Assembly (NCBI GenBank): GCA_965216785.1 | Contig: OZ244197.1 | Coordinates: 1,344,001 to 1,408,000 of the forward strand | Length of the DNA stretch: 64,000 nt | Direction of reading: 5' to 3' | Origin: Thermodesulfobacteriota bacterium | Lineage (GTDB): Bacteria > Desulfobacterota_D > UBA1144 > Nemesobacterales > UBA2774 | The notes under the pieces: generated by a model | Seen by the model: only the letters and a program-made list of their open reading frames with translations | Told to the model about the DNA's origin: nothing | The model's database searches: none | Made by a program: the position numbers and the translations under genes | In this document: piece by piece, positions 31,926 to 48,768 of the stretch | Position numbering within the stretch: position 1 is the first letter of the stretch | Layout of the letters: every line of letters begins with the position of its first letter

Positions 31926-32117
31926 GCTAGGTACTGCTTATATAATAACACAAGCGCACATTTACCTTAAAGAAATTCGGAAAAATGTCAAATGTTTTTG
32001 TATGCTGATGAATGAACGCTCCCTCAGCCCTTAAGCCCGGGGCGAGACTGTTCATGTTTAAATTTGTATGTACAATTATCTCTCCCGGGACTGCAGAGAG
32101 GAGAAAAGATAAAGAAA

Positions 32118-32909: not shown

Positions 32910-33015
32910 GCGTTAGTTCCTCACCCTTAGAAAAAGGGAGATGGATAATGAAAACCGCGCTTGAAAATCCCGCAGAATAGTTCATAATAATTCCCCTGTT
33001 CGACGACACTAATTA

Positions 33016-33090
33016 GGCGGCGTAGCCAAGTGGTAAGGCAGCGGTCTGCAAAACCGCAATGCCCCGGTTCGAATCCGGGCGCCGCCTCCA
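33016..33090 (+). tRNA. tRNA-Cys(GCA)
   Basis: Cloverleaf, anticodon arm GCGGT CT GCA AA ACCGC, U73 and CCA. Confidence 0.98.
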
Positions 33091-33102
33091 AATTTCCTCA
33101 AT

Positions 33103-33588: not shown

Positions 33589-33770
33589 AATGGTGCTTCC
33601 TCCTTGGGGAATAAGGTAAAAGATAAGGAGAGGCATTACCACTAATATTCTGTTAATTCTCTCGACCCCGAAAAAAGCCTGTGGCAGATACGCCTGCTTA
33701 GGGTGAGGTATTTGGAGAGGGTGAGGGATAATGGCACTGATGGGGGCAGACCCACTTGTAATAAAGATAC

Positions 33771-33800
33771 AAAAAAAGGGAGCCGAAGCTCCCCTTTTTT
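33771..33800 (-). terminator. intrinsic terminator, GGGAGC-TTCG-GCTCCC family
   Basis: Same hairpin as after the IPTL genes, flanked by A and T tracts. Confidence 0.85.
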
Positions 33801-33804
33801 ATAA

Positions 33805-33827
33805 TCGATTGCTCTCTTGATAAACGC
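33805..33827. repeat. 23-bp direct repeat, copy 1 (copy 2 at 37992-38014)
   Basis: TCGATTGCTCTCTTGATAAACGC is identical in both, each next to a terminator hairpin. Confidence 0.9.
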
Positions 33828-33864
33828 ACTGAATTACTAAATTAAAAAGCCCAATAAGAAGCGG

Positions 33865-34305
33865 TTAGTGCTTGCATTCCCCCACGGAGCCGGGTTTGCA
33901 CTGCTGGCCGTTAACCCAGTATGTATTGTCGAACCGGGCGCCGTTTAGCTTTGCGCCTCCTATAAGTGACTTTGTCATATAGGCGGACGTAACGTTCGCG
34001 TTTTCAAAATTCACTCCCTGAAGGTTTACGCCCAGTATTGAAGCTCCGTCTAGATTGGCCCCGGATAAATTAGCGCCTTCAAGGTTAGCGTGTGACAGAT
34101 TTGCCCCTGCCAGGTTTGCTTTGCTTAGGTCCGCATCTTTCAAATATGACCCCATCTTATTACATCCCTGCCAGTCAACGCCCGGAGCCGGAGGATCGTC
34201 ACAAGTTGCGAGGGCGGCGGATGAAACCGATAAAACTAATAGGGAAGCGAGCAATGCTCTTTTAATAAACCACAAATAATTTTCGTTCATTATCATAGTC
34301 CTCAT
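33865..34305 (-). CDS. secreted pentapeptide-repeat protein
   Basis: Signal peptide, C....PGVDWQGC cap, A(N/D)L repeats, W.NG..C...S.G.C end. Confidence 0.92.
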   Translation of the reverse strand: MRTMIMNENYLWFIKRALLASLLVLSVSSAALATCDDPPAPGVDWQGCNKMGSYLKDADLSKANLAGANLSHANLEGANLSGANLDGASILGVNLQGVNFENANVTSAYMTKSLIGGAKLNGARFDNTYWVNGQQCKPGSVGECKH

Positions 34306-34354
34306 TTATATAGACTTAGATGCGATCTATAAAAATAGAGGTGCATAGGCGCTC

Positions 34355-35212
34355 CTACTTTGGTTTATTTCCCGGCCACATAACCGCCCTCACGCTGCCC
34401 TCCAGGATCTGGGGCATTTTATAGTCGGGGTAGAGCGTCTTCATTTTTTTTACAGCCTCATCGATAGTTTCAGAATTATTAACCGTTTCCTGAAAATTGA
34501 GTAGATATTCCACAGCCCGATCTAGAATATCCGCGCCGCCCGCCGGCCCGTGCCCGGGATAGACTTTGGAAATAGGGCCGATAGCGCGGATTTCGCTTAG
34601 CTGCCCGAGCCATTTCTCGACATTGTTCTCTCCGACCCACATGTGAACGCCGCCGCTTGCCAGGTCGCCTACGAACAAAGTTTGTGAGGAAGGGATGTAA
34701 ACGACCGTATTTTCAACACTCTCGCCGCCTTTGAATATCCTGTAGGTAATTTGAACGTCCTCAAGTTTTAACTCTCCGTTTTGCAGCACTGTCAGATCAC
34801 TAAAAGCCTGCCGCTTATCGTCAGAGCCTGTCCAGTACTTAGAGGTATTCCTGACGCCCGCTATAGTCTCTGGGCCCCCGGTTATTTCGGCGCCCCCGAA
34901 CTCCTTTCCTATAAACTCAAGGCCGTAGTAGTGGTCCGGGTGAGGGTGAGTGATAATTATCCCGACCAGCTCTTTCCCGGTTGATTTGATTAACTCTCCG
35001 ACCTTCTTTCCCTCAGCCGGGGAAAACTGGGCGTCTATTAAAATCGCCTCATTCTCTCCAATAAGGATGTGGGAATTACTCATAAACCCTTCAGCAGGTG
35101 CTGCGTAGGTGATTACAGAGAATTCGGGTCCAGAATCGGTTTGAGCTTCCAGTGCCGCTGTAGAATAAGAGATAGCAGAAAATAAGAGAAAAACAGCTGC
35201 AAAGATAGGCAT
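34355..35212 (-). CDS. secreted metallo-beta-lactamase-fold protein
   Basis: THPHPDHYYG, GDL, PGHG; signal peptide; start uncertain. Confidence 0.88.
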   Translation of the reverse strand: MPIFAAVFLLFSAISYSTAALEAQTDSGPEFSVITYAAPAEGFMSNSHILIGENEAILIDAQFSPAEGKKVGELIKSTGKELVGIIITHPHPDHYYGLEFIGKEFGGAEITGGPETIAGVRNTSKYWTGSDDKRQAFSDLTVLQNGELKLEDVQITYRIFKGGESVENTVVYIPSSQTLFVGDLASGGVHMWVGENNVEKWLGQLSEIRAIGPISKVYPGHGPAGGADILDRAVEYLLNFQETVNNSETIDEAVKKMKTLYPDYKMPQILEGSVRAVMWPGNKPK

Positions 35213-35270
35213 AGCGTATCTATCTAAATTACACCTATCCTCACAGCAATATAGCCAACAGGTCAATGTT

Positions 35271-35624
35271 CTAGTTTACAAAAAGTACCCAGCCGGTTTG
35301 CTCGTTCCCCTGAACTTTACCAGCGATTTTCACATTAACTCTGTTGGGGTTTTGCTCAATCTTCATAAGACCATCCTGAAGCCCCTGGAGTACATAAACC
35401 TTGTCTCCACTCACTAATAAATGCTGATGTGGTGGTAATGTGTCACACGCATGAGTGGCGATTACCGGTTTGACTGTGCCTTTGGCATAATCCGGGATCA
35501 GGCAAATTACGTTCCCCTGTATAGTCGTGGTAGCTTCCTCATCAGCATAACTAGCTGTCCCAGCAAAAAGAACAAATGAACCTATAATCATCAAAGACAA
35601 AAACATTGTTTTAAATCCACGCAT
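35271..35624 (-). CDS. secreted hypothetical protein, possibly OB-like with Cys/His ligands
   Basis: SD TAGGAGG, signal peptide, GNVICL...HAC...HQH. Confidence 0.7.
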   Translation of the reverse strand: MRGFKTMFLSLMIIGSFVLFAGTASYADEEATTTIQGNVICLIPDYAKGTVKPVIATHACDTLPPHQHLLVSGDKVYVLQGLQDGLMKIEQNPNRVNVKIAGKVQGNEQTGWVLFVN

Positions 35625-35720
35625 AATTTAGCCTCCTAAAACTGTATTTTGTATGTTTAAGCGCTAAAAAAATTATTAGCAACTCTTAGGACTGACTCTG
35701 TTCCTGTACAAGCTGAAAAA

Positions 35721-36269
35721 TCATTTTTTTAGTACCGGATAACCTTCTATATAGATCCAATCGGTTTGCTTTGCCGGTACGTGACAGCCAAGGCAATCCT
35801 TTTTATAGTCCGTTGCCACATCCTTGGAAGGGTCCTTGGCGTAATAAAGAGCCCATCCCCATCCGTCCCCCCATTTCGGGTTGTCCGGGAACCTGCCTTT
35901 TTCGTCTTTCACCATGACGAACCACAGAACGATATCCTTGGCGTGGAGCACCCCCTTTCCCGTAGTCATATCCTGGACGCCTTCCGAGAGTACTTCTTTT
36001 ACCAACACCGCTCCGTCAGGGAATTTCCCGTTCTTTTTATAACTCTCGGCAACCCCGGGCTCGGTGTATACGTTGTGTATGCCGCTCTCCCTGTCCTCGG
36101 GGTGTACCCAGGAGCCCAGGTAAGTCCATTTTTCCCTAAAATCCGCCGGTCGGGTGATGTTGCCTTCAGAGTCCACATAAGGTGAGAATGATCCATTCTC
36201 ATCCGCCTGTGCGGAAATCATCAGTCCGAATGTAAATAAGGCTGCAAACATTAATAAAAAACTGTTCAT
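35721..36269 (-). CDS. cytochrome P460 family protein
   Basis: Signal peptide, HNVY, FPDGAVLVKE (cross-link Lys position), FVMVK, C-terminal CLGCH. Confidence 0.9.
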   Translation of the reverse strand: MNSFLLMFAALFTFGLMISAQADENGSFSPYVDSEGNITRPADFREKWTYLGSWVHPEDRESGIHNVYTEPGVAESYKKNGKFPDGAVLVKEVLSEGVQDMTTGKGVLHAKDIVLWFVMVKDEKGRFPDNPKWGDGWGWALYYAKDPSKDVATDYKKDCLGCHVPAKQTDWIYIEGYPVLKK

Positions 36270-36315
36270 GTACGACTCCCTTTATTTGTTTTGATTTCAC
36301 CGCCCGCACAACCGA

Positions 36316-36945
36316 TCACCTGCACGGACGCATTGCGCGCGCGTGGAGAGCGTGGATCTTTTTACTGCTGTTGAGCACGAGGCCGTCGAAAAAATTCACG
36401 GTCCAGGCATTTTGTGTAATGATTACGCTTGGAGTAGAAGTCCAGTAGTAGGTCGTTGCCATTTCTCCGTGAACACTGCTCGCTGGACGAAACGAGCCGT
36501 AGTCCACGATGCTCTGCAGCTCCTTTACATCCGGTATACACCAGTCTCTGTGTCCGGTGAAACCACATTTCTCACCTTTAGCGCAGTCTTCGTCGCTTTT
36601 ACACTCTGTTGCGCCTTCTCCCTCGCACGTGCTGTTAAGCGCTCTCAGAAAAACCTCAAACAGAGTGCCGTCGGGCTCTGAATCACTTTCCTCTCTCTGC
36701 GTCCATGTATATGTGTTGTCCACGTCGTGGACGCTTTCATCGTCTGTTTTAATCTCCCAGACAATCTTCGTTTTCTCATCCGTAAACGTTCCGTCTCCGT
36801 TGTCCTTGTAATGCTCCGCCGGGCCGTACCTTTCCAAGCCAAACGCATCTGGGATGAAAAACCCGGAGTAAAGAAAGTGACACACCGAAATGCAGATTAA
36901 GCCTAAAAAAAGCGGCAGCGATATTTTAAAAGAAAGCTTCTTCAT
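36316..36945 (-). CDS. Lcl/DUF1566 domain secreted protein with a Cys-rich insertion
   Basis: DNGDGT..D..T..VW, DW.IP.VKEL.SIVD, YWTST, AW.VNF. Confidence 0.85.
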   Translation of the reverse strand: MKKLSFKISLPLFLGLICISVCHFLYSGFFIPDAFGLERYGPAEHYKDNGDGTFTDEKTKIVWEIKTDDESVHDVDNTYTWTQREESDSEPDGTLFEVFLRALNSTCEGEGATECKSDEDCAKGEKCGFTGHRDWCIPDVKELQSIVDYGSFRPASSVHGEMATTYYWTSTPSVIITQNAWTVNFFDGLVLNSSKKIHALHARAMRPCR

Positions 36946-37058
36946 TTAGCTCCTACTCCTCAAAAGTGGATAGGCGGCAATGAATCGCCTCGCAAATAAC
37001 CCACCTGAAAAGGAGATTTAATTACCCGGTAATAGCTGTGTCTGCGGTAATCATGCCT

Positions 37059-37670
37059 CTATTTCTTTTTCACTGCCGCCTTTGCCGCTCTTAGAACAGG
37101 ATAGAATTGTGTGAATACCCAGTCCTCACCCGCAGTTGCCTGATGACAGGCGTTGCAAGACGCCGTTGGCTGCAATTTGCCGGATTCGGGGTAGGGAGGC
37201 GGTTTATGGCTGAATGAGAAATACACCCAGTTCCCGGGCTCGTCGGGATAGCGTTTTTTACTTTTATACGCGGCTTCGAGTCCGATGAAATCACCTTCAA
37301 AAAAGCCGTTTCCGCTAGAGGCTTTTGTTGCCCCAACGCTCACAAGCTCCTTAATCAGCAGAGTCCCTTCGGGGAATTCCCCTGTTTTTGAATAATGATC
37401 AAAGCTATTTGGGTCCATGTAGACATTGTGAAACTCTGGGAAGGGCGCTTCGGGCGGATTGAGCGAGTTCGGAGTAACGGGAGTGCCTACGTATATCCAC
37501 TTCCTCCACTCATAATCCTTGGGCTGAATCAGATTCCCATCCTTATCGAACTTGGCGTGTTCTTTAGCCTCCGCTTGAGGCTGGGCAAGAATCATCATGC
37601 TAAGAAGAAGTATTAAGGACGCGCATGCCAGTACGCTTACAAACAAATACTTTGATCTCAAATTTAACAT
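37059..37670 (-). CDS. cytochrome P460 family protein (second copy)
   Basis: W.YVGT..TP, EFHNVY, FPEGTLLIKE, GNW.YF.F, CNACH, VFTQFYPVL. Confidence 0.9.
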   Translation of the reverse strand: MLNLRSKYLFVSVLACASLILLLSMMILAQPQAEAKEHAKFDKDGNLIQPKDYEWRKWIYVGTPVTPNSLNPPEAPFPEFHNVYMDPNSFDHYSKTGEFPEGTLLIKELVSVGATKASSGNGFFEGDFIGLEAAYKSKKRYPDEPGNWVYFSFSHKPPPYPESGKLQPTASCNACHQATAGEDWVFTQFYPVLRAAKAAVKKK

Positions 37671-37955
37671 CTGACACCTCCTAAAAAAGATTTTTTAGAA
37701 AATCTTATTTGACGGTGAGTATCAAACCTAAATCCAGTATTTATACAAAGTATCTACATTCCGATTCGAATTTTAGTTTCTATTGAAATAGTGTTAGAGA
37801 CTCGTAAGAGCAGAGCTTGAAAACCGACCTAGAAATTGAGACCCGCCGTGGCTCAAATTCTTAGCTCTCCTTAATATTAGGATCACTAACTAATTTTGAC
37901 GATAACATATTGACATATTCAAATCAAGGGTTTTTAAATAGTGATGGGGAATTAT

Positions 37956-37987
37956 AAAAAAGGGGCGAAAGTCCCGCGCCCCTTTTT
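37956..37987 (-). terminator. intrinsic terminator
   Basis: AAAAAAGGGGCG...CGCCCCTTTTT. Confidence 0.8.
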
Positions 37988-38052
37988 GTAGTCGATTGCT
38001 CTCTTGATAAACGCGCCGAATCGCGGAAAGCCCGCGCCGAACCCCGGCAGGA

Positions 38053-38406
38053 TTATTTTGCTACGGTGATCTGCGCTTTCATATTCGGATGATAGCGGCA
38101 GAAATATGTTTCATACATGCCTTTTTTAACAACTGTCTGCCACTTTCCTTCCGCCTCGATGAGTCCCGAGTCCCAGCTCTCGTCATCGGCTGTCACCGTA
38201 TGCGGGATAAAATCGTAGTTTATCCATGTGATTGTGTCGCCGGGCGTTACGGTCAGCTCCTTGGGAGAGAACTCCAGGTTTCGTATCTCGACCACGTGCT
38301 CCTTTGCTACGGAGTCACCAGCCGCAGGGGGCTGGACGGGCATTGATAATAGGACTGCGGCCGCAATCGCAACCACAGTCCTAAGTGAGGATGATAGTAT
38401 GCTCAT
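38053..38406 (-). CDS. cupredoxin (plastocyanin/amicyanin-like)
   Basis: F.P..L.V..GDTITW.N...PHTVT and YFCRYHPNM type-1 copper ligands. Confidence 0.92.
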   Translation of the reverse strand: MSILSSSLRTVVAIAAAVLLSMPVQPPAAGDSVAKEHVVEIRNLEFSPKELTVTPGDTITWINYDFIPHTVTADDESWDSGLIEAEGKWQTVVKKGMYETYFCRYHPNMKAQITVAK

Positions 38407-38407
38407 T

Positions 38408-38968
38408 TTATTTGTTGACCGCATCGACCATATTCTGGGCATGCTGCTCGTGGCTTTTGAAGATTACGATAGCCTGACCGAAGAGCTCTTTCATCTGAGG
38501 GTTTTGAATGTTGGGGATGAACGTGCCCTCAACTAAAGAGTTAACGGCCTGATGGTAGGCAAGCTCGTTCTCCGCATATCTCTTATCGAACTCAGCTCCA
38601 CTCAAAGCGCTCATCTCTTCTACAAGCTGGTCAGCCTGCTTGTTCAGGTTCTGGCTCAAGAAGTTGTCCTGAGGCTGTGCGCCCAGTTTCTGTAAAAGCG
38701 CGAGGGCCTGCTCGTTAACGCCGGTGTGGTCGCGCACCATGGTCTCGGCAAACTCTATCACGACCGGGTTCTTTGACTTAGCCAGCGCCAAATGCGCGTA
38801 GCGGATGTCGATGTTGTCCGCCGTATAGGCTACGTGCGCTATCTCAAGGTCGTTAAGGTCCGCAGGGGACGGAGCCTTGTCGGCCGATGCAGAGATGGAA
38901 GCTGCGGCAAAGATAATAGCCACTGCCAAGAAAGCGAAAACTGATCTAATAATAGTTTTCTTACTCAT
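38408..38968 (-). CDS. DUF4142 ferritin-like periplasmic protein
   Basis: Signal peptide, FAETMVRDH, GAEFDKRY, YH, H.QHA. Confidence 0.9.
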   Translation of the reverse strand: MSKKTIIRSVFAFLAVAIIFAAASISASADKAPSPADLNDLEIAHVAYTADNIDIRYAHLALAKSKNPVVIEFAETMVRDHTGVNEQALALLQKLGAQPQDNFLSQNLNKQADQLVEEMSALSGAEFDKRYAENELAYHQAVNSLVEGTFIPNIQNPQMKELFGQAIVIFKSHEQHAQNMVDAVNK

Positions 38969-39025
38969 AGTTGTTACTACCTCCTAAGTGTTATTGGTTA
39001 AACAACTTGATGTCGTACCAAAATA

Positions 39026-39487
39026 TCAGAGATCCGCCGGGTTTTTGTCTTTAATTCCTGGCCAGTTCTGATCGGCTTTGACGATGTTTCCGGGGATGTC
39101 TTCAAACCACATTTTCTGAATGTTTCTGTCTAGGTTCAAGTAGAGCTTACCGTCAACTATCTTCCAGACTTCGGGGTCGCCTACGAACTTCTTATTGACT
39201 GAAACACCGAAAGCGCAGTATCCGCCGTACGCGGGGAGATACTTCTCCGGGTTCTTCTCAAACGCCTTTTTATTTTCCTCGTTTGCGAAAAGGTAAGTAA
39301 CACCGTCTACGACCACGAGGTTGTTGCCGTCGCCCCTCACTGGTTTTCCTTCCGTGTGGTAGGAAACGAGGTCGTATCCGAGCACGCCCGTGGTGCTAGT
39401 TTCAACGCCCGCTGCAAATGAGTCAGCGGCCCAAAAGCTAACTGCTACTACAAATACCGTTAATATTAAAGATTTGATTCTGTTCAT
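39026..39487 (-). CDS. YHS-domain (seleno)protein family member, Cys form
   Basis: GYD.VSY, F...P.KY.P.YGGYCAFG, IVDGKLYLN, A..NW. Confidence 0.9.
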   Translation of the reverse strand: MNRIKSLILTVFVVAVSFWAADSFAAGVETSTTGVLGYDLVSYHTEGKPVRGDGNNLVVVDGVTYLFANEENKKAFEKNPEKYLPAYGGYCAFGVSVNKKFVGDPEVWKIVDGKLYLNLDRNIQKMWFEDIPGNIVKADQNWPGIKDKNPADL

Positions 39488-39551
39488 GATAATCTCCTTA
39501 TAAGTTTATTTTTCGGAGAGGTTTACTCCCCTATACCTTTTAAATCTCTAC

Positions 39552-40061
39552 TTACACATATCTGATGTGGTACTTCTCTGAGAGCGCATCGATTTGTTCC
39601 TGAGTGGGCTCGCCTTTTGCGTAAAGTGCGGCCATCTCGACGAAGTAGTTATCGAACTGCCCCGGCAGTATGGTGTCTATAACGATGCTAGGCTTGTCGC
39701 CTACGTTTGTGAAGCCGTGGGATATCCCGCGCGGCAACAGCGCCGTAACGCCCGGAACCGCAAGCATGGTCTGATCGCCGAGGGATACCTCGATCTCGCC
39801 CTCGAGCACGTACACGAGCTCGTCTTCGTTCTCGTGTACGTGGGAAAGGACTCCCTTGCCCGGAGGGGTTACGATCTGGATCACCGAAAATACGTTATTG
39901 GTATCCTGGCTCTTCACCTTGTGTATGAAGTCGCCGCCCGCTATGTTTAGCACGTCGCCGCCGTCCGGTACTACAATGATGGGGTCCTGCGTGAAGGAGT
40001 TTCCTTCCCCGTCTACAAAGTAGACGCTGTCCTTTGCTTCAGCTGGATTGTTTACTGACAT
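39552..40061 (-). CDS. cupin domain protein
   Basis: HVHENEDE..YVLEG and PRG..HGF; SD AGGAGGT. Confidence 0.9.
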   Translation of the reverse strand: MSVNNPAEAKDSVYFVDGEGNSFTQDPIIVVPDGGDVLNIAGGDFIHKVKSQDTNNVFSVIQIVTPPGKGVLSHVHENEDELVYVLEGEIEVSLGDQTMLAVPGVTALLPRGISHGFTNVGDKPSIVIDTILPGQFDNYFVEMAALYAKGEPTQEQIDALSEKYHIRYV

Positions 40062-40130
40062 GTTTATCACCTCCTAGTGATAATTTATGACGTTTGGATT
40101 TTGAGATCGTCATAATCATGCCCTCTATAA

Positions 40131-40148
40131 GTACAAGAGCCGTGCCAA
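40131..40148 (-). promoter_or_regulatory. sigma-54 promoter of the cupin-YHS-DUF4142-cupredoxin operon
   Basis: TTGGCAC-GGCTC-TTGT; the -12 element is a GT variant. Confidence 0.6.
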
Positions 40149-40305
40149 GAGGCGCGCGGTTTGTGAAAAGCGGGTGTAACACCCCTTCATCATTCAGTAT
40201 TGTGTCGGTCCGGAGGTGAGTCTGCCAAGCTGAGGTACACGGTGGCCGTTACGGAATATCACAACGTACCGATATGCCACGACTTGGCGGGTGGGTGGAG
40301 GGAAA

Positions 40306-40548
40306 GCAGGATAAAATAAAGATAGCGATTGCCGGAGAGATCCAGAATCAAGTTCAGGACATGGTCCGGGATGACAAGTAGTGCTGGTGCCCGGGGCCGG
40401 ACTCGAAGCGGCGGGGGGCAGAGGCGAGCGCTTTATAGCGATGCCTGCAGGATAAAATAAAGATAGCGATTGCCGGAGAGATCCCGAATCAAGTTCAGGA
40501 CATGGTCCGGGATGACAAGTGGTGCTGGTGCCCGGGGCCGGACTCGAA
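40306..40548. repeat. 102-bp tandem duplication of the tRNA-Leu 3' end plus a downstream REP-like palindrome
   Basis: 40306-40407 versus 40447-40548, two mismatches, 39-bp spacer. Confidence 0.95.
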
Positions 40549-40612
40549 CCGGCACGAGCGTGAACTCGAGGGATTTTAAGTCCCTTGCGTCTACCAATTC
40601 CGCCACCCGGGC
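40526..40612 (-). tRNA. tRNA-Leu(TAA)
   Basis: GCCCGGGTGGCGGAATTGGTAGACGC...CT TAA AA...long variable arm...CACCA. Confidence 0.98.
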
Positions 40613-40756
40613 ACAGTAGGGCGGGCTCACTATTATAAAAACAAGAAAGAATAATAGCGGGAAGATTTGTATTTTACAGTTTTTACAGAGTCATTCAATA
40701 GCGGGCGGCTCATTACTTAAGAGAAATGATTGTTTAATTCCAGGGATCGGCAGAAT

Positions 40757-41107
40757 TTACAAATCACTTTTCATCTCTTCTATCTCTTTATTAAGGAAAT
40801 AGGACAATATGGTTCTTATAACTACGATACCGCCTAGAAAAATAAGCTCTTCCGTTGTTTGATGCAGAACCGTTTTTATTATATCGGCGACTATCATTAT
40901 TTCTAAACCCAGCAAAAGATAACTGCCCAAAAAACACCTGATAGTTTTTATATCAGAGCTGCTAAGAGTTTTATTCCTTATCCTCAGCGCAAAATAGTCA
41001 TACATTGCTTTTATGAAACCCCATAAAATAAATAATATCGCTACTATATCTATAATCTCTGTTACCGGAGTAAAGATAGATACGATGAATTCTTCAAAAT
41101 GAAGCAT
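40757..41107 (-). CDS. DUF1622 membrane protein
   Basis: LLLGLE...ADII.T and IRT.LSYFL.KE. Confidence 0.9.
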   Translation of the reverse strand: MLHFEEFIVSIFTPVTEIIDIVAILFILWGFIKAMYDYFALRIRNKTLSSSDIKTIRCFLGSYLLLGLEIMIVADIIKTVLHQTTEELIFLGGIVVIRTILSYFLNKEIEEMKSDL

Positions 41108-41455
41108 GTGTGCCCCCCTGATAATTATTTATTTTCATATCCTGAAGCGAAAGCCCCGGAGTCCTTTCTCTAACCACATTGATATCATCTAATTTACTTT
41201 ACTCCGATTGCTATTAAAAACTTTGAGGCTTATATGACCTACTACTTTAGACTTCGTATGACGAAATAAGTAGCGTCCGCCTGCCCCTGCTTATTACCCC
41301 AGTATCTCCAAAATATAAAATTCACCAAATATCGTGGATTCACTAAATATCCAAGATACCTCTAACTCACCAAAATTGTAGAGAACCCCTCCGGAATTAA
41401 GCATTATCACGTCATTCTAGAGGCTTAGAGCCCTCTTCGCTCATCAGAGGAGCCG

Positions 41456-41471
41456 TGGCACGCGCGTTGCA
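41456..41471 (+). promoter_or_regulatory. sigma-54 promoter of the hydrolase operon
   Basis: TGGCAC-GCGCG-TTGCA. Confidence 0.8.
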
Positions 41472-41509
41472 CTTAAGGGGCGTATCAAAAAAATTCAGGA
41501 GGCAGTAAC

Positions 41510-42487
41510 ATGACTTACATTATGAGACAAACGGTTTTAGTTTTATTCGCCATTGTGATGATAGGGCAAGCGGCGGCATTCGCGGGAGAGCAGACAGCAC
41601 CTCCCACTCAGACCCTTCATAAGACGGTGAAGATAGACGGGCTGGACATATTCTACAGGGAAGCGGGCCCTAAGGACGCACCGACGATCCTTCTGCTGCA
41701 CGGGTTCCCTACTTCATCGCATATGTTCAGGAACCTTATCCCGGCCCTTTCGGACAAGTACCACGTGGTGGCTCCGGATTACCCCGGATACGGGTTCAGC
41801 TCTATGCCCACGGTGGACGAGTTTGACTACACTTTCGACAACTTGGCCGCGGTAATGGAAAAGTTTATAGATAAGCTCGGGCTGGATAGCTACAGCCTTT
41901 ACCTTCAGGACTACGGCGCGCCGGTAGGTTTCCGCATCGCCGCGAAGAGTCCTGAGAAGGTGGAAGCGCTTATCGTCCAGAACGGAAACGCCTACGAAGA
42001 GGGGCTGCGCGAGTTCTGGGTTCCGCTGAGAGCCTACTGGAAGGACCGCTCGGAAAAGAACGCCGCTGTGCTAAGAGAGTTCCTTACACTCGATACTACC
42101 AAGTGGCAGTACACCCACGGCGTCAGGAACGTCGAGACGATAAGCCCCGACAACTGGGGGCACGTACAACCGCTGCTTGACCGCCCGGGCAACCAGGAGA
42201 TACAGCTTGCGCTATTTTACAGCTACGGCTCAAACCCTCCGCTCTATCCCGACTGGCAGGCGTACATGAGAAAGCACCAGCCCCCGACGCTGATCGTATG
42301 GGGTAAGAACGACTACATATTCCCGGCTGAGGGCGCATATCCCTACAAGCGGGACCTTAAGAACGTTGACTTCAATATACTCGACACCGGGCACTTTGCC
42401 CTGGAAGAGGACCTTGAGGTCATTACAGGGCACATTCGGAGATTTATGTCTGAGAACGTAAACAAAAACTCCTCTGCCAAAAAATAG
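41510..42487 (+). CDS. secreted alpha/beta hydrolase (epoxide hydrolase/dehalogenase-like)
   Basis: [13 protein letters not shown] nucleophile elbow, TGHFALE; signal peptide. Confidence 0.92.
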
Positions 42488-42605
42488 TTTCCAACTAAAA
42501 GACAGAACGAGCAGGCCGCGCTCTGAAAATGGCGCGGTCTGCGTTTCTTATGACAAACAGGCTCTGCTTACAGGGGCTAAATCACATAAAACGGAGGTAT
42601 TCAAA

Positions 42606-43277
42606 ATGGCATTACCCGATCCCGGAGTAAAAGTAGATAAGACTAATACGGCACTGCTGATTACGGACCCGCAGAACGATTTCCTCAGCCCCGAGGGGGT
42701 TACGTGGGGAGTCGTCGGCGAGAGCGTCACGGAGAACAATACGGTCTCGAACCTTGAGCAGCTCTTTAAGACGGCTAAGAAAAGGGGCATCCCGGTATTC
42801 ATCTCTCCTCACTATTATTACCCGACAGACCACGGGTGGAAGTTTGAGGGAGCGCTCGAGAGACTGATGCACTATTTAGGTATGTTCGACAGAAAAGGCC
42901 CTCTCAGTCTGGAGGATTTCGAGGGCTCGGGGGCCGATTGGCTTGAGCGCTACAAAGGCTATATAAACGACGGGGAAACAGTAGTTTGCAGCCCGCACAA
43001 GGTTTACGGCCCTGAGACAAACGACGTCGTTCTACAGCTCAGGAAGCGCGGCATCGGAAGAGTGGTACTGGCCGGGATGTCGGCAAACCTGTGCGTAGAG
43101 TCGCACCTGAGGGAGCTGCTTGAGACAGGGTTTGAGGTCGCGGTTGTAAAGGACGCCACCGCGGCGGCCAAGGTGCCCGAAGGCGACGGCTATGAGGCCG
43201 CTCTTACGAATTTCCGCTTTCTCGCCGGAACCGTCTGGACTACGAAAGAAGCCGTAAGGCACATGAATAAAAGCTGA
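42606..43277 (+). CDS. isochorismatase-family cysteine hydrolase
   Basis: TALLITDPQNDF, HK, AGMSANLCVESH, V.DATA. Confidence 0.92.
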   Translation: MALPDPGVKVDKTNTALLITDPQNDFLSPEGVTWGVVGESVTENNTVSNLEQLFKTAKKRGIPVFISPHYYYPTDHGWKFEGALERLMHYLGMFDRKGPLSLEDFEGSGADWLERYKGYINDGETVVCSPHKVYGPETNDVVLQLRKRGIGRVVLAGMSANLCVESHLRELLETGFEVAVVKDATAAAKVPEGDGYEAALTNFRFLAGTVWTTKEAVRHMNKS

Positions 43278-43351
43278 TATCTGCGGCTCTTAAATAATTT
43301 CTCTAAATCCAACCAAACACCGTCCCGGCTCTTTGGAATTATTAACAGGTT

Positions 43352-43936
43352 CTATGCCGGGGCGGGTTCCGTAAGTACCTTTTCAATATTTTTAAGCGCT
43401 TCCCTAAACGGCTTTGTCGAGCCGATTCCTCTTGAGAGCACTAGTCCTCCTTGAAGCAGAGTCAAAGCGTTTACGGCTCTTGACTGAGCTTCCTCTTTAC
43501 TAACCCCATTTTCCTCCAAAACGCCAGCAATCGTGCTTATTAATGTCTTGAAACCGTTCTTTATAGATTTGGCGAACGGCCCCTTATCTATAGTGGGATG
43601 AGAGAGCATGTTCAGCAGGCAGGACTCGTTTCCGCCAGCGTAGAGGTTGTTAAGCTCCTTTACGAGGTGCTTGATTTTCTTGTCGGGAGTGAGCTTGCCG
43701 TCTTTACTCCTTAGGGGCTCAATTATGTTCTCGGCTATCCACGCGTCGGCAAAGTCCAGCACCGATTGGGCCATCTCTTCCTTGCCACCGGGAAAGCGGT
43801 GGTATAGGCTTGCTTTCTGAAGCCCCGTTACCTCGGCGAGCACGGTCATCGACGCCCCTTCGTATCCGTAGTTCCTGAACACCTTGGCCAGTCTCTCCAT
43901 GAGTTCCTGATCGCTTACTTTCGCAGTTCGAGCCAC
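43352..43936 (-). CDS. TetR family repressor (LmrA/YxaF/NemR-like)
   Basis: F...GYEGASM..LA..TGL.KASLYH.FPGGKEE HTH; ESCLL Cys motif. Confidence 0.92.
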   Translation of the reverse strand: MARTAKVSDQELMERLAKVFRNYGYEGASMTVLAEVTGLQKASLYHRFPGGKEEMAQSVLDFADAWIAENIIEPLRSKDGKLTPDKKIKHLVKELNNLYAGGNESCLLNMLSHPTIDKGPFAKSIKNGFKTLISTIAGVLEENGVSKEEAQSRAVNALTLLQGGLVLSRGIGSTKPFREALKNIEKVLTEPAPA

Positions 43937-43953
43937 ATGAGCCTCCTATTCTT

Positions 43954-43969
43954 TACTGAACATTCGTTA
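43954..43969. promoter_or_regulatory. secondary TetR operator over the tetR promoter
   Basis: TACTGAACATTCGTTA, 13/16 match to the perfect palindrome at 44062. Confidence 0.65.
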
Positions 43970-44027
43970 TAATGTACCTGTAATCACTCATAAATAAATA
44001 ATTTTTACAAACTACTGAAAAAAACTA

Positions 44028-44077
44028 TTGACAAACTATTTGTATTTCACTACAATAATTATACCGAACGTTCGGTA
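44028..44077 (+). promoter_or_regulatory. sigma-70 promoter with a perfect 16-bp palindromic operator over the start site
   Basis: TTGACA(44028)-17-TACAAT(44051); TACCGAACGTTCGGTA at 44062-44077. Confidence 0.85.
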
Positions 44078-44107
44078 ATTATCAAGTAGAGTTAAGGAGG
44101 TTTCAGA

Positions 44108-45160
44108 ATGTCTTGCAAAATAGCCGATATGAATTATCTCTGTGAGCGGGGTAAAAATTCTTCACCGGCCGTGCGCTATCTAAAGCTGTCTAGGGCAGGA
44201 GATTACTCGGGTGTGTTTAATAATATCGTAGGTAAGAGCACGGCGCTAAGGGCTGTGCTGAGTAAGGCAAGGCTCGTAGCGGGAACAAACGCTACAGTGT
44301 TGATTACCGGGGAGACCGGTACGGGTAAGGAGCTGATCGCCAGGGCCGTTCATAACGAGAGCCCGCGAAGAGAGCGCCCTATGGTAAAGGTCAACTGCTC
44401 GGCGCTTCCCGCAAACCTCATAGAGAGCGAGCTGTTCGGCCATGAGAAAGGAGCTTTCACCGGGGCCATAGATAAAAAGATAGGACGGTTCGAGCTTGCG
44501 GACAAGGGTACGATATTCCTTGACGAGATCGGGGACATGCCGCTTGAGCTTCAAGCCAAGCTATTGAGAGTGCTTCAGGAAGGTGAGTTTGAGAGGCTCG
44601 GAAACCCCAGGACCATTAAAGTGGACACACGCGTCATCGCGGCCACGAACCTTAACTTTGAAGAGGCGATTAAAGAAGGAAAATTCCGTGAAGACCTCTT
44701 TTACAGGCTAAACGTATTTCCCCTCCACGCACCGCCCCTCAGAGAAAGAAAAGAAGACATACCGGGGCTTGTTTCTCACTTCAGCGTAAAGCTGGGCGCG
44801 AAGGTAGGTAAGGAAATACATTCCATAAGTTATAAAGCGCTCGATCAACTCTCGCAATATGATTGGCCCGGTAACGTGCGTGAGCTTGAAAACGCTATAG
44901 AAAGAGCGATTATCACAGCCGAGAATAGCACGATACAGCCCGGGGAATGGATACCTCAAAAGAATAAGACACCGCTTGCTTCGGATGAAATATATACTTT
45001 AGAGGAAAACGAGAAGCGCCTAATCATGAGGGTCACCGAGCTTACGGGTGGTATTTTGAGCGGCGAAAGGGGCGCGGCAAAACTGCTCGGAATTAACCCC
45101 AATACGCTGCGGAGCCGAATGGAGAAACTTGGTATAAAAAGACGGCTCAGTGTTTGTTAG
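44108..45160 (+). CDS. sigma-54 enhancer-binding protein (AAA+ and Fis HTH) lacking an N-terminal sensor domain
   Basis: [50 protein letters not shown]; only about 35 aa precede the AAA+ domain; SD AAGGAGG. Confidence 0.93.
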
Positions 45161-45277
45161 GCTAAAAGATAAGTTACTTCGAGGGAACGCGGTGACCACC
45201 GCAATCCCGGACACTCACGACTGCTCTATAGTTTTACTCCCATAGATCCGCTACATATTCCGGTCTGTCCTCGGACT

Positions 45278-45376
45278 CTGATTTGATTCCTGCCCCGGCA
45301 TCGCTGTGAAGCGCTCGCCTCTGTCCCCTGATTTTATTCCCGCGGGCATCGCTGTGAAGCGCTCGCCTCTGTCCCC
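45278..45376 (+). repeat. tandem pair of a 48-bp element, with a third inverted copy at 40415-40457
   Basis: Identical 32-bp core GGCATCGCTGTGAAGCGCTCGCCTCTGTCCCC at 45297 and 45345. Confidence 0.9.
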
Positions 45377-45522
45377 ATTACGATATATCACAGAATTATT
45401 TTATTTCGCTATTAAATCTCATGATCCAAAGCTCGTGTGCGGGCGTATTATTGTGCAACTGATCAACATTGTTTAACGATAACAGGCGCTTGTATGGCTT
45501 AAATCAGCATAAAACGCACGTT

Positions 45523-45538
45523 TGGCACAGGGCTTGCA
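45523..45538 (+). promoter_or_regulatory. sigma-54 promoter of the ECF sigma gene
   Basis: TTTGGCAC-AGGGC-TTGCA. Confidence 0.85.
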
Positions 45539-45580
45539 CTTATCACGAATGTAAAAATAAAGGTGTTACGGAGAGTTAAG

Positions 45581-46273
45581 ATGAGCAATACAAATTTAGC
45601 GCAAACACAAAAAACAAAAGGCTACGACATGCCGGCGGCGGACCCAAAGCAGTTTAGCGGAGAGCCCGCAAGAACGGAATATCTGAAAGCGCCTGACGAG
45701 CTGCTCGCAGAGCTTTACGTCAGTAAAAAAGCACAATGGGCCTTCAATGAGCTCGTAAACCGGTACAGCTGCAAGATCTATAAGCTCGCATACAAGTTTA
45801 CTAAGGACGAGAACGGCGCCAATGACGTCCTTCAAGAGGTCTTTCTCGCATTGTTTCAGAAGCTCGATACATTTAGGGGAGAGTCAAAATTCTCGACCTG
45901 GGTTTTCGGAATCACCAGGAATACGAGCCTCATGTATCTGAAAAAACAAAGAAAGCACCTTAGGGACCTATCGCTTACTGGGGCCCCAGACGCTGAGGGC
46001 GATACGCCCGAGTTCCTGGTGGAGGACTGGAGGTTCATACCGGACACGCTGATTATGGAGGAGGAAAAGCGGTACAAAGTTGAAGAAGCGCTGAGCGCGA
46101 TACCCGAGAAGTACAATACCGTGCTCCGCATGAGAGACCTTGAAGGCCGGACGAACCTTGAGATCGGTGCGATATTGGGCATTAGCCTATCGGCTGTAAA
46201 ATCGCGGGTCAGACGAGCGAGGATGCAGCTTAAGGAAAGTCTGGTGCAATACAGGGTGAATGAGCTTTACTGA
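45581..46273 (+). CDS. ECF RNA polymerase sigma factor
   Basis: D.LQEVFL, F.GESKFSTW..I.RN, EIG.ILGIS..AVKSR..RAR. Confidence 0.93.
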   Translation: MSNTNLAQTQKTKGYDMPAADPKQFSGEPARTEYLKAPDELLAELYVSKKAQWAFNELVNRYSCKIYKLAYKFTKDENGANDVLQEVFLALFQKLDTFRGESKFSTWVFGITRNTSLMYLKKQRKHLRDLSLTGAPDAEGDTPEFLVEDWRFIPDTLIMEEEKRYKVEEALSAIPEKYNTVLRMRDLEGRTNLEIGAILGISLSAVKSRVRRARMQLKESLVQYRVNELY

Positions 46274-46403
46274 AACTCGCGCTTATTCCGGTTTTTCAAA
46301 GGGAAAATTGGAACTTTAGAACAATATTCTAGAGTCCCTTGTATATGGGTTTTAGAATGCGTTAAGGTTTGGATAGATATACGCGGGTAAGTATTCTGCG
46401 GCT

Positions 46404-46622
46404 TTAGTGGTAGTTTCGGTTAATTATCTGCTCTTCATCTTCGTCGTCGTCCCAGTCCTCGTCATCATCGTCGTCCCAGTCTTCTACGTCTTCGTCGTCG
46501 AACAATCCGTCTTCGTCGTCCAATTCGTCCCAGAGCTCCTCGTCTTCGTCCTCATCCCACTCGTCCTCATCATCGTTGCTCCACTCATCGTCTTTTTCAA
46601 GAAGCTTTAATTCTTTAGTCAT
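46404..46622 (-). CDS. very acidic Asp/Glu/Trp-rich small protein
   Basis: 72 aa with long D/E runs punctuated by W; SD GGGGGT and upstream TTGACA promoter. Confidence 0.7.
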   Translation of the reverse strand: MTKELKLLEKDDEWSNDDEDEWDEDEDEELWDELDDEDGLFDDEDVEDWDDDDDEDWDDDEDEEQIINRNYH

Positions 46623-46842
46623 TAAATACCCCCGAACTACAGAAATCTAAGGAAAAATTTGCACTGCCTAATTTATATCTGAAAACATACATCTTGGCAT
46701 AGAAATGTCAAGCAAAATTATAGACAGTTTGTAATGCCTGGAATTTCCGTTTAAATGCAATAATATTTAAATATTACAGGGTGTTAGAGGTGTCAAGTTG
46801 CCGGATGGCAGGGGCGAGTAGGTATGCTGTCCGGGCTTATTT

Positions 46843-47874
46843 CTATGTATCGTCCGCCGAGCCCGGATCGCTGTGGTTATTTAAGAATTCCTCGGCCTTT
46901 AGAACCATTTCTTCAGACCCGGTAAAAATCGGGGTTCTCTGGTGAAGCTCTACGGGCTCGATGTCCAAAATACGTCTTACACCGTCAGTAGATCTTCCCC
47001 CTGCCTGCTCTACTATAAAAGACATAGGGTTGCACTCGTACACGAGCCTCAGCTTGCCGACGGGGTGATCGTTTAACGGCGGGTAGATGTATATGCCACC
47101 TGTTATTAAGTTCCTGTGGATGTCCGCGACCATCGAGCCTATGTAGCGGGCTGAGTAGGGTGAGCTTGATTCCCTGCCTACTTTCTTGCAGTAATTTATA
47201 TAATCTTTTACGCCCTGCGGGAAGCTGTCAAAGTAACCCGAGTTCACGGAGTAAGTCCTTCCTTCCGGAGGGATCTTCATGTCGAGATGGGACAGGCAAA
47301 ACTCCCCGATCGAGGGGTCTAGAGTAAAACCGTTCACACCGTGCCCGGTGCTGTATACGAGCATGGTAGATGAGCCGTATATTATATAGCCCGCGGCTGC
47401 CTGTTCCGCGCCCTTTTGAAGAAAGTCCTGGATTGTACAAGGGGCCCCCGTGGGAGTGACTCTTCTATAGATCGAGAATATGGTCCCGACAGAAACGTTG
47501 ACGTCAATGTTGGAAGAGCCGTCTAGAGGATCGATTGCGACTACGTATTTACCCTCGTAAGAGGACTTGCCTTCAAACGCTATAAACTCCTCGTCCTCTT
47601 CAGACGCGACGCCGCAGCACTGGCCTCCGAGCTCAAGTGAGGCTATGAAGCGTTGATTGGCTAATATGTCGAGCTTTTTTACTTCCTCCCCCTGCACGTT
47701 CGTATAGCCGGTCGATCCGAGCACGTCCACAAGTCCCGCTTTACTGACGTCTCTGTGTACAATCTTGGCGGCAAGGGCAATGTTACGCAAGAGCCTGGAC
47801 AGCTCACCGGTTGCGTAGGGGAATTCAGTTTGTTTTCTGATAATAAATTCGTCTAAAGTCTGAACGCCGATCAT
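46843..47874 (-). CDS. fbp: class 1 fructose-1,6-bisphosphatase
   Basis: [38 protein letters not shown]. Confidence 0.96.
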
Positions 47875-48029
47875 AAACAAATATAATACCAAAATTCTAA
47901 GTGCTAGGGAAATTTGAGTTATAAATATCTAATGTTATCTAGAGGTTATGCGCGCTTTTTGTTTTAATAGGTGGTTTTAAGATGGAATTTTTATTACTCT
48001 TAGGTAAGCTGCCAGCGCACGGTATTAAA

Positions 48030-48058
48030 GAAAAAAGGGAGCCGAAGCCCCCTTTTTG
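48030..48058 (-). terminator. intrinsic terminator, GGG(G/A)GC-TTCG-GCTCCC family
   Basis: Hairpin and T-tract after the IPTL gene. Confidence 0.85.
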
Positions 48059-48084
48059 TTCTATTGTTGTCGTGGTTAACAGAT

Positions 48085-48768
48085 TTAAGCACTCACCTTC
48101 TTTCTGCGTATGGCTATCAGGCCGATAATTCCAAGCACTCCTGCCATAGCGATCATCCCCCATTCAGAGAGTGTGGGTATGGGTCGCGGCGGTACATGAG
48201 CATAAACAATGCGCTCATACTCGTTCTCGTCGATCCCAAGGTCTTCAATCGCTCCGCATCGATATCCTTCACTATTATTCAAATGCCAGCACAGCCTTTC
48301 GTCGTCAGCGCCGCTATTATCAATGTCGCAATTAACTTTCTTTACAACATCTCCCGCTCTGGCAAATCCCCAGGCATTCCCATCTTCTACTTCACCACCG
48401 ACATTGTTGAAATACCAGCCGACACCGTTTGCTATGTGAACAACATCAGTATTATCATCACCTGTATCGAAAGTGACGTCGCTCCTCTCGCCCTGGGCAA
48501 GCAGCATAAGAGTGGAGCTTCCGGTCATTCTACAGGACAGCATCAATCGTTCCCCGGGACATTGGGAGAGCACCTGGTCGGCGTCCATATGGACATCATA
48601 GGTGTCACGGTAGCACTCGGTCCATCCGCCACCGGTTACCGTGGCTACCGCTACATTCGTCTTAGGTCCGACCGGAAGGTAGCTCTGTGCTTTTACTTCT
48701 AGGGGTGTAAATATAAAAACCGCAACTGTTACTACAATTATTGGTAAAAATGAAAGTGCATTTTTCAT
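48085..48768 (-). CDS. IPTL-CTERM surface protein
   Basis: Signal peptide, Cys/Trp-rich domain, RPIPTLSEWG + TM helix + RRKK. Confidence 0.88.
   Translation of the reverse strand: MKNALSFLPIIVVTVAVFIFTPLEVKAQSYLPVGPKTNVAVATVTGGGWTECYRDTYDVHMDADQVLSQCPGERLMLSCRMTGSSTLMLLAQGERSDVTFDTGDDNTDVVHIANGVGWYFNNVGGEVEDGNAWGFARAGDVVKKVNCDIDNSGADDERLCWHLNNSEGYRCGAIEDLGIDENEYERIVYAHVPPRPIPTLSEWGMIAMAGVLGIIGLIAIRRKKVSA

What the first reader, a model, noticed from the sequence alone, without database searches (positions are those of the whole stretch)
38053..46273. Candidate new system: TetR -> sensor-less sigma-54 activator -> ECF sigma cascade over a periplasmic redox toolkit
Seen: (1) a perfect palindrome TACCGAACGTTCGGTA over the start site of the activator promoter and a 13/16 copy over the divergent tetR promoter; (2) the activator has GAFTGA and an HTH but only about 35 N-terminal residues (two Cys), with no REC, GAF or PAS domain; (3) three -24/-12 promoters within 5.5 kb precede the ECF sigma (45523), the secreted alpha/beta hydrolase plus cysteine hydrolase (41456), and cupin-YHS-DUF4142-cupredoxin (40147); (4) no anti-sigma gene follows the ECF gene. 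Known: sensor-less activators such as PspF and HrpR/S are controlled by abundance or in trans, HrpRS-sigma54-HrpL is a precedent for an activator-to-ECF relay, and NemR-like TetRs sense electrophiles or HOCl through Cys. Inference: sensing is outsourced to the TetR, giving a three-tier amplifier for an oxidant, electrophile or nitrosative stress response that may also reach the adjacent P460 block.
Basis: partly seen in the sequence, partly recalled or inferred. Interest (0 to 1): 0.78.

Follow-up and report, generated by a model that had tools for sequence, protein, structure and literature searches.

The report
Repressor-gated sensorless sigma-54 stress switch
In an uncultured bacterium, a repressor with one conserved cysteine likely holds off a gene-activating protein that has lost its own sensor domain and would switch on a stress sigma factor and detoxifying enzymes; relatives keep traces suggesting the activator came under this control by fusing into one of the repressor's old target genes.

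Summary
The palindrome travels with this TetR subfamily across phyla (34 of 80 genome loci), and the TetR's only cysteine is invariant (120/120) and aligns with NemR Cys106. The short activator is not a recent truncation. Seven 350-351 aa forms (68-85% identical) are one clade inside PAS-bearing activators. New here is a shared enhancer upstream of the -24/-12 promoters. A matrix trained on relatives ranks the cupin and ECF promoters first and second of 55 genome sites. Corrections: PAS-bearing relatives already have the same TetR boxes, so TetR control came before sensor loss. The toolkit is driven by sigma-54 in parallel with the ECF gene, not under it. ECF targets are unknown. Three paralogous activators could cross-talk. 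Some relatives' activators start with the N-terminus of a DsrE-like TetR target, suggesting promoter capture by fusion and then internal PAS deletion. The architecture matches HrpXY-HrpS-sigma54-HrpL, built from different parts. The scan noted an activator-to-ECF relay earlier in a Gemmataceae genome (e1-2456734); that summary mentions no TetR tier. No binding or expression was tested, and the signal is inferred.

The parts
43352..43918 (-). TetR repressor (LmrA/YxaF/NemR-type C-terminal domain); its only Cys, C106, is invariant and aligns with NemR C106
   Evidence: ORF listed as 43352-43936
44062..44077 (.). Perfect palindrome, predicted TetR operator; covers the activator's predicted start site and the spacer of the tetR promoter
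43954..43969 (.). 13/16 second operator copy in the tetR leader
44028..44056 (+). sigma-70-type promoter of the activator (11/12); its -35 is conserved in four relatives
44058..44085 (-). sigma-70-type promoter of tetR (11/12) with the palindrome as spacer
44108..45160 (+). 350-aa FlhA-like sigma-54 activator without a sensor domain (AAA+, lid, HTH; intact GAFTGA and Walker motifs)
45378..45393 (.). Predicted enhancer (UAS) at -145 of the ECF promoter, 14.5 bits
45523..45537 (+). -24/-12 promoter of the ECF gene
45581..46273 (+). ECF sigma factor with no adjacent anti-sigma (likely start ATG 45581; longest ORF starts at 45563)
41340..41355 (.). Weak predicted enhancer at -116 of the hydrolase promoter (6.8 bits; relatives at -115)
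41456..41470 (+). -24/-12 promoter of the hydrolase operon
41510..42487 (+). alpha/beta hydrolase with signal-peptide-like N-terminus; closest solved relatives are haloalkane dehalogenases
42606..43277 (+). isochorismatase-family cysteine hydrolase, no signal-peptide-like N-terminus
40249..40264 (.). Predicted enhancer at -117 of the cupin promoter, 16.0 bits
40133..40147 (-). -24/-12 promoter of the cupin-YHS-DUF4142-cupredoxin operon
39552..40070 (-). cupin (no signal-peptide-like N-terminus)
39026..39487 (-). YHS-domain (seleno)protein family member, signal-peptide-like N-terminus
38408..38968 (-). DUF4142 protein, signal-peptide-like N-terminus
38053..38442 (-). cupredoxin with an H...C-x2-H-x2-M copper-ligand pattern
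40526..40612 (-). tRNA-Leu(TAA) lying between the target blocks, with a 107-nt copy of its 3' end at 40306-40412; not part of the circuit

Best explanation
A one-cysteine NemR-like TetR likely binds the palindrome and represses both its own gene and the divergent gene of a sigma-54 activator that has no sensor domain; modification of Cys106 by a thiol-reactive compound would release it, and the activator, predicted to be active once made, would then switch on three -24/-12 promoters in parallel (ECF sigma, two hydrolases, cupin-YHS-DUF4142-cupredoxin). Shown by sequence: the genes, promoters, palindrome, domain loss and their conservation. Inferred: binding, activity without a signal, the signal itself (electrophile or hypohalous acid, about 55%) and any ECF targets. 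Likely history: tetR first repressed a DsrE-like gene and the hydrolase directly; a PAS-bearing activator fused into the 5' end of the DsrE-like gene and took over its repressed promoter; one lineage then deleted the PAS domain internally.
For: Operator: within 2 mismatches upstream of tetR in 12 of 15 metagenome loci at 40% identity or more and 9 of 63 below that (controls inside the gene 1/15 and 0/63; 78 of 80 loci had enough flank), and in 34 of 80 genome loci. Same divergent tetR-activator layout with two boxes in L021, L029, L030, L031. C106 is invariant in 120/120 homologues and aligned to NemR C106; a conserved Cys is the sensor in NemR and AltR (PMC7464077, PMC13178969, passages). Six other short activators of 350-351 aa form one clade with the window protein (SH-aLRT/UFBoot 99.3/100; FastTree 0.999), nested among PAS forms. 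AAA+ identity averages 0.80 against 0.28 for the N-tail. An independent study's contig spans 40587-45293 with 44 differences and no gaps. An enhancer matrix from 8 sites in relatives only ranks the cupin (16.0 bits) and ECF (14.5) promoters 1st and 2nd of 55 genome -24/-12 candidates, at the same offsets as in relatives. Fusion trace: an HMM of the first 45 aa of 13 DsrE-like proteins scores the N-termini of L031, P0012 and P0019 at 23.7-28.7 bits (0/100 shuffles each, maximum 7.1). An HMM of 10 long-form N-termini scores short P0007 at 16.5 (0/200). The box precedes the DsrE-like gene in 7 of 13 metagenome loci. tetR is divergent from it with a box in L125, L129, L130 and L139.
Against: Nothing was tested at the bench. 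The hydrolase enhancer is weak (6.8 bits, rank 13 of 55; about 5% of random stretches reach 6 bits). Three other activators in the genome (at 1910577, 1329106, 3012803) have nearly the same recognition helix. A paralogous cupin operon near the 1329106 activator has a similar site (8.5 bits), and relatives use the same enhancer with PAS- or GAF-type activators, in loci where no TetR box was found (L026, L114, L115). NemR's sulfenamide partner K175 aligns with R169 here (Arg in 118/120), so the NemR HOCl chemistry is not carried over unchanged. The DsrE trace was first seen by eye and then tested. It is absent from 10 of 13 long N-termini and from the window protein itself (-1.8 bits); only 2 of 7 short forms give a signal. 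Linkage of short activators to tetR is direct only for this species; for P0004 and P0006 it rests on matching contig lengths and sources (7962 and 5314). No ECF target promoter was found.
Confidence: 0.7

Rival explanations
1. The promoters are shared by several FlhA-like activators with the same enhancer specificity, and the short activator is only one TetR-gated input (an OR gate) beside sensor-bearing paralogues elsewhere in the genome.
For: Near-identical recognition helices in three paralogues. The same enhancer occurs in loci with PAS- or GAF-type activators and no TetR box (L026, L114, L115). A second cupin operon with enhancer and -24/-12 lies near the 1329106 activator. This reading is compatible with the best explanation and may simply add to it.
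Against: The two strongest enhancer-promoter pairs in the genome flank this activator. Activators in this lineage sit beside their targets in the loci examined.
Confidence: 0.15
2. The short activator is not constitutive but is controlled after synthesis, either by a partner in trans (as PspA does for PspF and HrpV for HrpS), by hetero-hexamers with a PAS paralogue, or by cysteines in its N-terminal tail.
For: The two textbook sensor-less activators are both inhibited in trans (PMC7057263, passages). All 7 short forms have a Cys in the first 30 residues. A PAS paralogue (P0026) shares the 7962-bp longest-contig value with short P0004. STAS-like genes precede the ECF in L026 and L113-L115.
Against: The tail Cys sit at different positions (12, 20, 21, 27) in a tail only 28% identical on average. 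No STAS-like homologue was found in this genome with the L026 query at 1e-5. No candidate inhibitor gene lies in the locus.
Confidence: 0.12
3. The activator is a decaying, recently truncated remnant and the arrangement is accidental.
For: The module is patchy: the TetR was found in only 3 of 100 other genomes of the order, and a tRNA-end duplication lies inside the region.
Against: Seven short forms of the same length at 68-85% identity with invariant catalytic motifs; one clade; intact in an independent study's contig; ribosome-binding site and promoter in place.
Confidence: 0.03

Closest known systems
HrpX/HrpY -> hrpS -> sigma-54 -> hrpL (ECF32) cascade of Erwinia, Pantoea, Pectobacterium and Dickeya; HrpR/HrpS of Pseudomonas syringae (PMC12910134, PMC8999054, PMC7057263; passages seen)
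   Same: An outside sensor controls transcription of an activator with no sensor domain, which drives an ECF gene without anti-sigma from a -24/-12 promoter.
   Different: The input is a Cys-bearing TetR repressor, not a two-component system. The activator derives from FlhA-like PAS activators. Outputs are hydrolases and periplasmic proteins driven in parallel with the ECF; there is no secretion system and no HrpV-like inhibitor in the locus.
NemR (E. coli) and AltR (Pantoea ananatis) thiol-sensing TetR repressors (PMC7464077, PMC13178969; passages seen)
   Same: TetR family, autorepression at an inverted repeat, conserved Cys at the NemR C106 position, detoxification-type targets.
   Different: Only 22% identical to NemR; different operator (NemR's TAGACC-type box confirmed); Arg at the K175 position; here the repressed gene is a sigma-54 activator rather than the enzymes.
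PspF and other enhancer-binding proteins without a regulatory domain (PMC7057263; passages seen)
   Same: AAA+ plus HTH only, intact GAFTGA.
   Different: Separate origin by PAS loss; control predicted at transcription, not by PspA.
ECF203 (TetR in context, no anti-sigma; PMC7826278, passages seen)
   Same: ECF without anti-sigma next to a TetR. ECF paralogues in this lineage sit directly behind other TetR genes (L116, L119, L121, L124).
   Different: In the window a sigma-54 activator is inserted between TetR and ECF; the ECF group of this protein was not determined.

Membership tests
Bacterial enhancer-binding protein (sigma-54 activator) | AAA+ domain with Walker A/B, GAFTGA and sensor II, plus Fis-type HTH | tested here: met
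   PF00158 247 bits, PF25601, PF02954; motifs invariant or nearly so in the short forms
Bacterial enhancer-binding protein (sigma-54 activator) | rpoN in the genome and -24/-12 promoters with an upstream enhancer | tested here: met
   (sequence level only)
Sensor-less activators (PspF/HrpR/HrpS type) | No N-terminal regulatory domain | tested here: met
   AAA+ starts at residue 40; the tail is poorly conserved
Sensor-less activators (PspF/HrpR/HrpS type) | Orthology to PspF or HrpR/S | tested here: not met
   PspF models score below cut-off (285 of 443.55; 236 of 529 bits) and below FlhA (394 bits); nested among PAS activators. HrpR/S were not in the tree.
Sensor-less activators (PspF/HrpR/HrpS type) | Inhibitor acting in trans (PspA, HrpV) | tested here: inconclusive
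   No candidate in the locus; STAS-like neighbour of relatives not found in this genome; no genome-wide search for other inhibitors
NemR-like thiol-sensing TetR | Conserved Cys at NemR C106 | tested here: met
NemR-like thiol-sensing TetR | Lys at NemR K175 (sulfenamide partner) | tested here: not met
   aligns with R169; Arg in 118/120 homologues
NemR-like thiol-sensing TetR | NemR operator (TAGACC-N4-GGTCTA) and nemA/gloA targets | tested here: not met
   different palindrome and targets
NemR-like thiol-sensing TetR | Release from DNA on Cys modification | not testable with these tools
   needs EMSA and mass spectrometry
Hrp cascade (HrpXY/HrpS/HrpL) | Two-component input and type III secretion output with hrp boxes | tested here: not met
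   no such genes among those annotated in 32064-48768; the rest of the genome was not searched for them
Transcriptionally controlled ECF without anti-sigma (ECF32/ECF203 type) | No adjacent anti-sigma; own promoter under another regulator | tested here: met
   same in relatives L021, L026, L030, L031
Transcriptionally controlled ECF without anti-sigma (ECF32/ECF203 type) | Assignment to a numbered ECF group | not testable with these tools
   no ECF group models are available; supplement of PMC7826278 searched by terms only and cut when stored

The most novel reading that the evidence does not exclude
A complete, readable record of a regulatory tier being inserted. A thiol-sensing TetR regulon (DsrE-like protein, hydrolases, YHS) was converted into a sigma-54 regulon when a PAS activator fused into the repressor's own target gene and captured its promoter. 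It then shed its sensor by internal deletion, giving a constitutively active, repressor-gated activator that also launches an ECF sigma. This would be an independent invention of the HrpS-HrpL design for chemical stress, with the ancestral, intermediate and final states all still present in living bacteria.
Probability: 0.5. Interest if true: 0.75.

Novelty: new variant of a known kind. Interest (0 to 1): 0.62.

Why it matters
Activators without a sensor domain are known mainly from PspF and HrpR/S, both held in check by partner proteins. This would be a separately evolved case controlled by abundance through a repressor, and a second use of the activator-to-ECF relay outside plant pathogens. 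The relatives give a rare stepwise view of rewiring (direct TetR regulon, then PAS activator under TetR, then sensor loss) that can be rebuilt in E. coli. The operator and enhancer defined here also annotate a widespread, apparently unstudied TetR-DsrE-hydrolase regulon. The parts themselves are conventional and the signal is not known, which limits the score.

Tried and rejected
Recent truncation or assembly artefact: rejected. A conserved two-Cys sensor in the N-tail: positions are not conserved; kept only as a weak rival. ECF target promoters: upstream regions of P460b, YHS, fasciclin and small secreted genes were compared and gave no shared bipartite motif. A 17-nt conserved stretch upstream of P460b occurs only here and in L026. 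A -24/-12 site for the P460 block: none (best score -2.3 against 19-22 for the three real sites). IHF sites: only weak 2-mismatch matches. Rfam on 32500-47000: tRNAs only above threshold. Expression: no RNA holder listed. The lost PAS domain matched only PA0861 in the PDB, so its ligand is unknown. A TetR model was obtained (mean pLDDT 87), but fold searches and the activator fold did not run because the machine was busy. The careful treekit tree did not finish (one search is the quick tree); a 44-row IQ-TREE run replaced it (read), without a formal one-clade test. Literature: no paper held the operator or two variants. None held 5 of 6 DsrE/TetR terms or 4 of 6 TetR/activator/ECF terms. One review held 5 of 6 RpoN/ECF terms (listing only). 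The library lacks most subscription papers, and the NemR sulfenamide paper was not held, so absence from print is not established.


Full report
Setting. The window is G000:C1:1344001-1408000 of a single-contig 3.12-Mb genome. Relatives carrying the same TetR are labelled Thermodesulfobacteriota or Deltaproteobacteria MAGs. The genome has 15 clear sigma-54 activators (PF00158 at 215 bits or more), one rpoN and 25 sigma-70 region-2 matches.

Observation. All four listed features are present at the stated coordinates. Three sites matching TGGCAC-N5-TTG[CT] fall in 38053-46273, against 0.053 expected from the 20 such sites in the genome. The perfect palindrome is one of 58 in the genome, so it needed outside support. 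It begins about 6 bases after the -10 of a near-consensus promoter for the activator. It is also the spacer of a near-consensus promoter for tetR on the other strand, so one site would shut both genes.

The operator belongs to the TetR. In 80 metagenome loci found with the TetR (78 with enough flank), a match within 2 mismatches lies upstream of tetR in 12 of 15 loci at 40% identity or more and 9 of 63 below. Controls inside the gene gave 1 of 15 and 0 of 63. In 80 genome loci the count is 34. These loci include close kin and are not independent, but they span Proteobacteria, Nitrospirota, Cyanobacteria, Bacteroidota and Planctomycetota. Outside this lineage, further copies sit directly before a DsrE-like gene (PF02635) or the same alpha/beta hydrolase. 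The DsrE-like gene occurs in 13 of 80 and 20 of 80 loci. The TetR has one cysteine, C106, invariant in 120 of 120 homologues and aligned with E. coli NemR C106 (22% identity, probability 86%). NemR K175 aligns with R169. NemR and AltR sense reactive compounds through this conserved Cys (PMC7464077 and PMC13178969, passages). Sensing by a thiol is therefore likely; the compound is not determined.

The activator lost its sensor once, long ago. The six best homologues after the protein itself are 350-351 aa; the next 23 are 475-523 aa and carry PAS families (only lengths 192-613 were searched). On the AAA+-HTH core, the seven short forms are one clade. Support was SH-aLRT 98 in a quick 71-row tree, and 99.3/100 in a 44-row IQ-TREE run and 0.999 in FastTree. 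The clade is nested among PAS forms. Mean identity is 0.80 in AAA+, 0.74 in linker-HTH and 0.28 in the 36-residue tail. A contig from an independent study covers 40587-45293 with 44 differences and no gaps. TetR homologues P0123 and P0124 share source and longest-contig length with short activators P0004 and P0006 (7962 and 5314). This is indirect evidence of the same pairing in two more lineages.

TetR control came first. In G021 (L021) and metagenome loci L029-L031, tetR is divergent from a 518-aa PAS activator with two boxes between them, and -24/-12 sites precede the hydrolase, cupin or ECF genes. In G003, G007 (two loci) and G036, GAF- or PAS-type activators lie beside STAS-ECF genes and the same toolkit (including P460, MBL-fold, pentapeptide, fasciclin, MsrB and DUF4331 genes), with no TetR box found. 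The TetR was found in only 3 of 100 other genomes of the order. The same-genus genome G001 has the ECF at a contig end, with the cupin promoter and enhancer.

Enhancer. A motif search over 14 upstream regions returned an imperfect palindrome of the form TTGTGA-N-AT-N-TCRYAA, at -144 to -145 of ECF promoters and -115 to -117 of most others. A matrix built only from 8 sites in relatives ranks the window's cupin promoter first (16.0 bits, -117) and ECF promoter second (14.5, -145) among 55 genome -24/-12 candidates; 0.05% of random 80-base stretches reach 14 bits. The hydrolase promoter is 13th (6.8, -116), which is not significant alone but is at the conserved offset. Three other activators in the genome have almost the same recognition helix, and a paralogous cupin operon near one of them has a -24/-12 site and an 8.5-bit site. 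Cross-talk is therefore possible.

Fossil of the rewiring. I noticed by eye that some long activators begin like the DsrE-like protein, then tested it. An HMM of the first 45 residues of 13 DsrE-like proteins scores L031, P0012 and P0019 at 25.7, 23.7 and 28.7 bits (0 of 100 shuffles each). The other 10 long N-termini do not score. Among short forms, P0004 gives 5.3 (0/100), P0007 gives 5.8 (1/100), and the other five, including the window protein, give nothing. An HMM of 10 long N-termini scores P0007 at 16.5 (0 of 200 shuffles) and the window protein at -1.6 (86 of 200). tetR is divergent from the DsrE-like gene with the box between them in L125, L129, L130 and L139, the arrangement the activator now occupies. 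The simplest reading is fusion into the 5' end of the DsrE-like gene followed by internal deletion of PAS, with the tail decaying afterwards. This is inference from relatives; the window protein itself no longer shows it.

Outputs. The hydrolase's closest solved relatives are haloalkane dehalogenases, the second enzyme is an isochorismatase-family Cys hydrolase, and the G021 operon adds a further dehalogenase-like gene. YHS, DUF4142, cupredoxin and the alpha/beta hydrolase have signal-peptide-like starts; cupin and the Cys hydrolase do not (crude test). Both operons have their own sigma-54 promoters, so they are parallel to the ECF, not below it. No ECF target was identified. The P460 block is linked in relatives but is separated here by a terminator-like hairpin (about 37956-37987, read) and has no -24/-12 site.

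Comparison with what is known. An outside sensor controlling transcription of a sensor-less activator that drives an ECF without anti-sigma is the Hrp cascade (PMC12910134, PMC8999054; passages). PspF and HrpR/S lack a regulatory domain and are inhibited in trans (PMC7057263; passages). Removing the regulatory domain is expected in principle to make an activator constitutive (bioRxiv 10.1101/2023.10.31.564978; passage). TetR-linked ECFs without anti-sigma are ECF203 (PMC7826278; passages); its one held supplement was searched by terms only and was cut when stored, so a matching ECF group could be hidden there. Searches found no paper on this operator or wiring.

Verdict. A real, conserved, lineage-restricted circuit built on a known plan from different parts, with an unusually clear evolutionary trail. 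New variant of a known kind; interest 0.62.

Noticed in passing
window 33016-33090 and 40526-40612: The whole P460-to-cupin block lies between two inward-facing tRNA genes (Cys and Leu), with a 107-nt duplication of the tRNA-Leu 3' end and flank at 40306-40412; possible integration or rearrangement scar.
   Followed up: partly
window 45297-45376 and 40414-40445: A 32-nt dispersed repeat with 41 copies in the genome at up to 4 mismatches, often in short tandem runs about 47-49 nt apart; REP-like.
   Followed up: partly
G000:C1:1322315-1330000 (L108): Second cupin plus 117-aa gene behind a -24/-12 site and enhancer, cut by an IS, near a 533-aa activator orthologous to that of G003; looks like a remnant of a sister module.
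   Followed up: partly
G000:C1:3012632-3013768 (L022 9633-10769): A second short activator (378 aa, AAA+ starts at residue 58, no sensor family found) of a different clade, next to a RidA-like gene and a dehalogenase-like gene.
   Followed up: partly
L116, L119, L121, L124 (and likely L123): Paralogous ECF genes sit directly behind other TetR genes with no activator between, a two-tier version of the same logic.
   Followed up: partly
G000:C1:73377 and 331730: -24/-12 sites precede 380- and 402-aa sigma-70-family genes; sigma-54-to-sigma relays may be common in this genome.
   Followed up: no
G000:C1:697949-698350: A 22-bp palindrome and enhancer-like site (12.3 bits) with a -24/-12 promoter before a small secreted protein of a Pfam-less family also found beside ECF genes in relatives.
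   Followed up: partly
window 37833-37849 (minus strand): 17-nt sequence identical in G003 upstream of the P460b gene and found nowhere else in the genome or fetched loci at up to 2 mismatches; possible regulator site or leader.
   Followed up: partly
window 33103-33642: Secreted Cys-rich protein of about 17-residue tandem repeats with no Pfam or NCBIfam match.
   Followed up: no
window 46404-46622: 72-aa extremely acidic (Asp/Glu/Trp) ORF convergent with the ECF gene, no family match.
   Followed up: no
L052, L057, L070, L073, L083, L086: A branch of the same TetR subfamily carries a NemR-type TAGACC box instead of the TACCGA box although the recognition helix is similar; a specificity switch worth mapping.
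   Followed up: no
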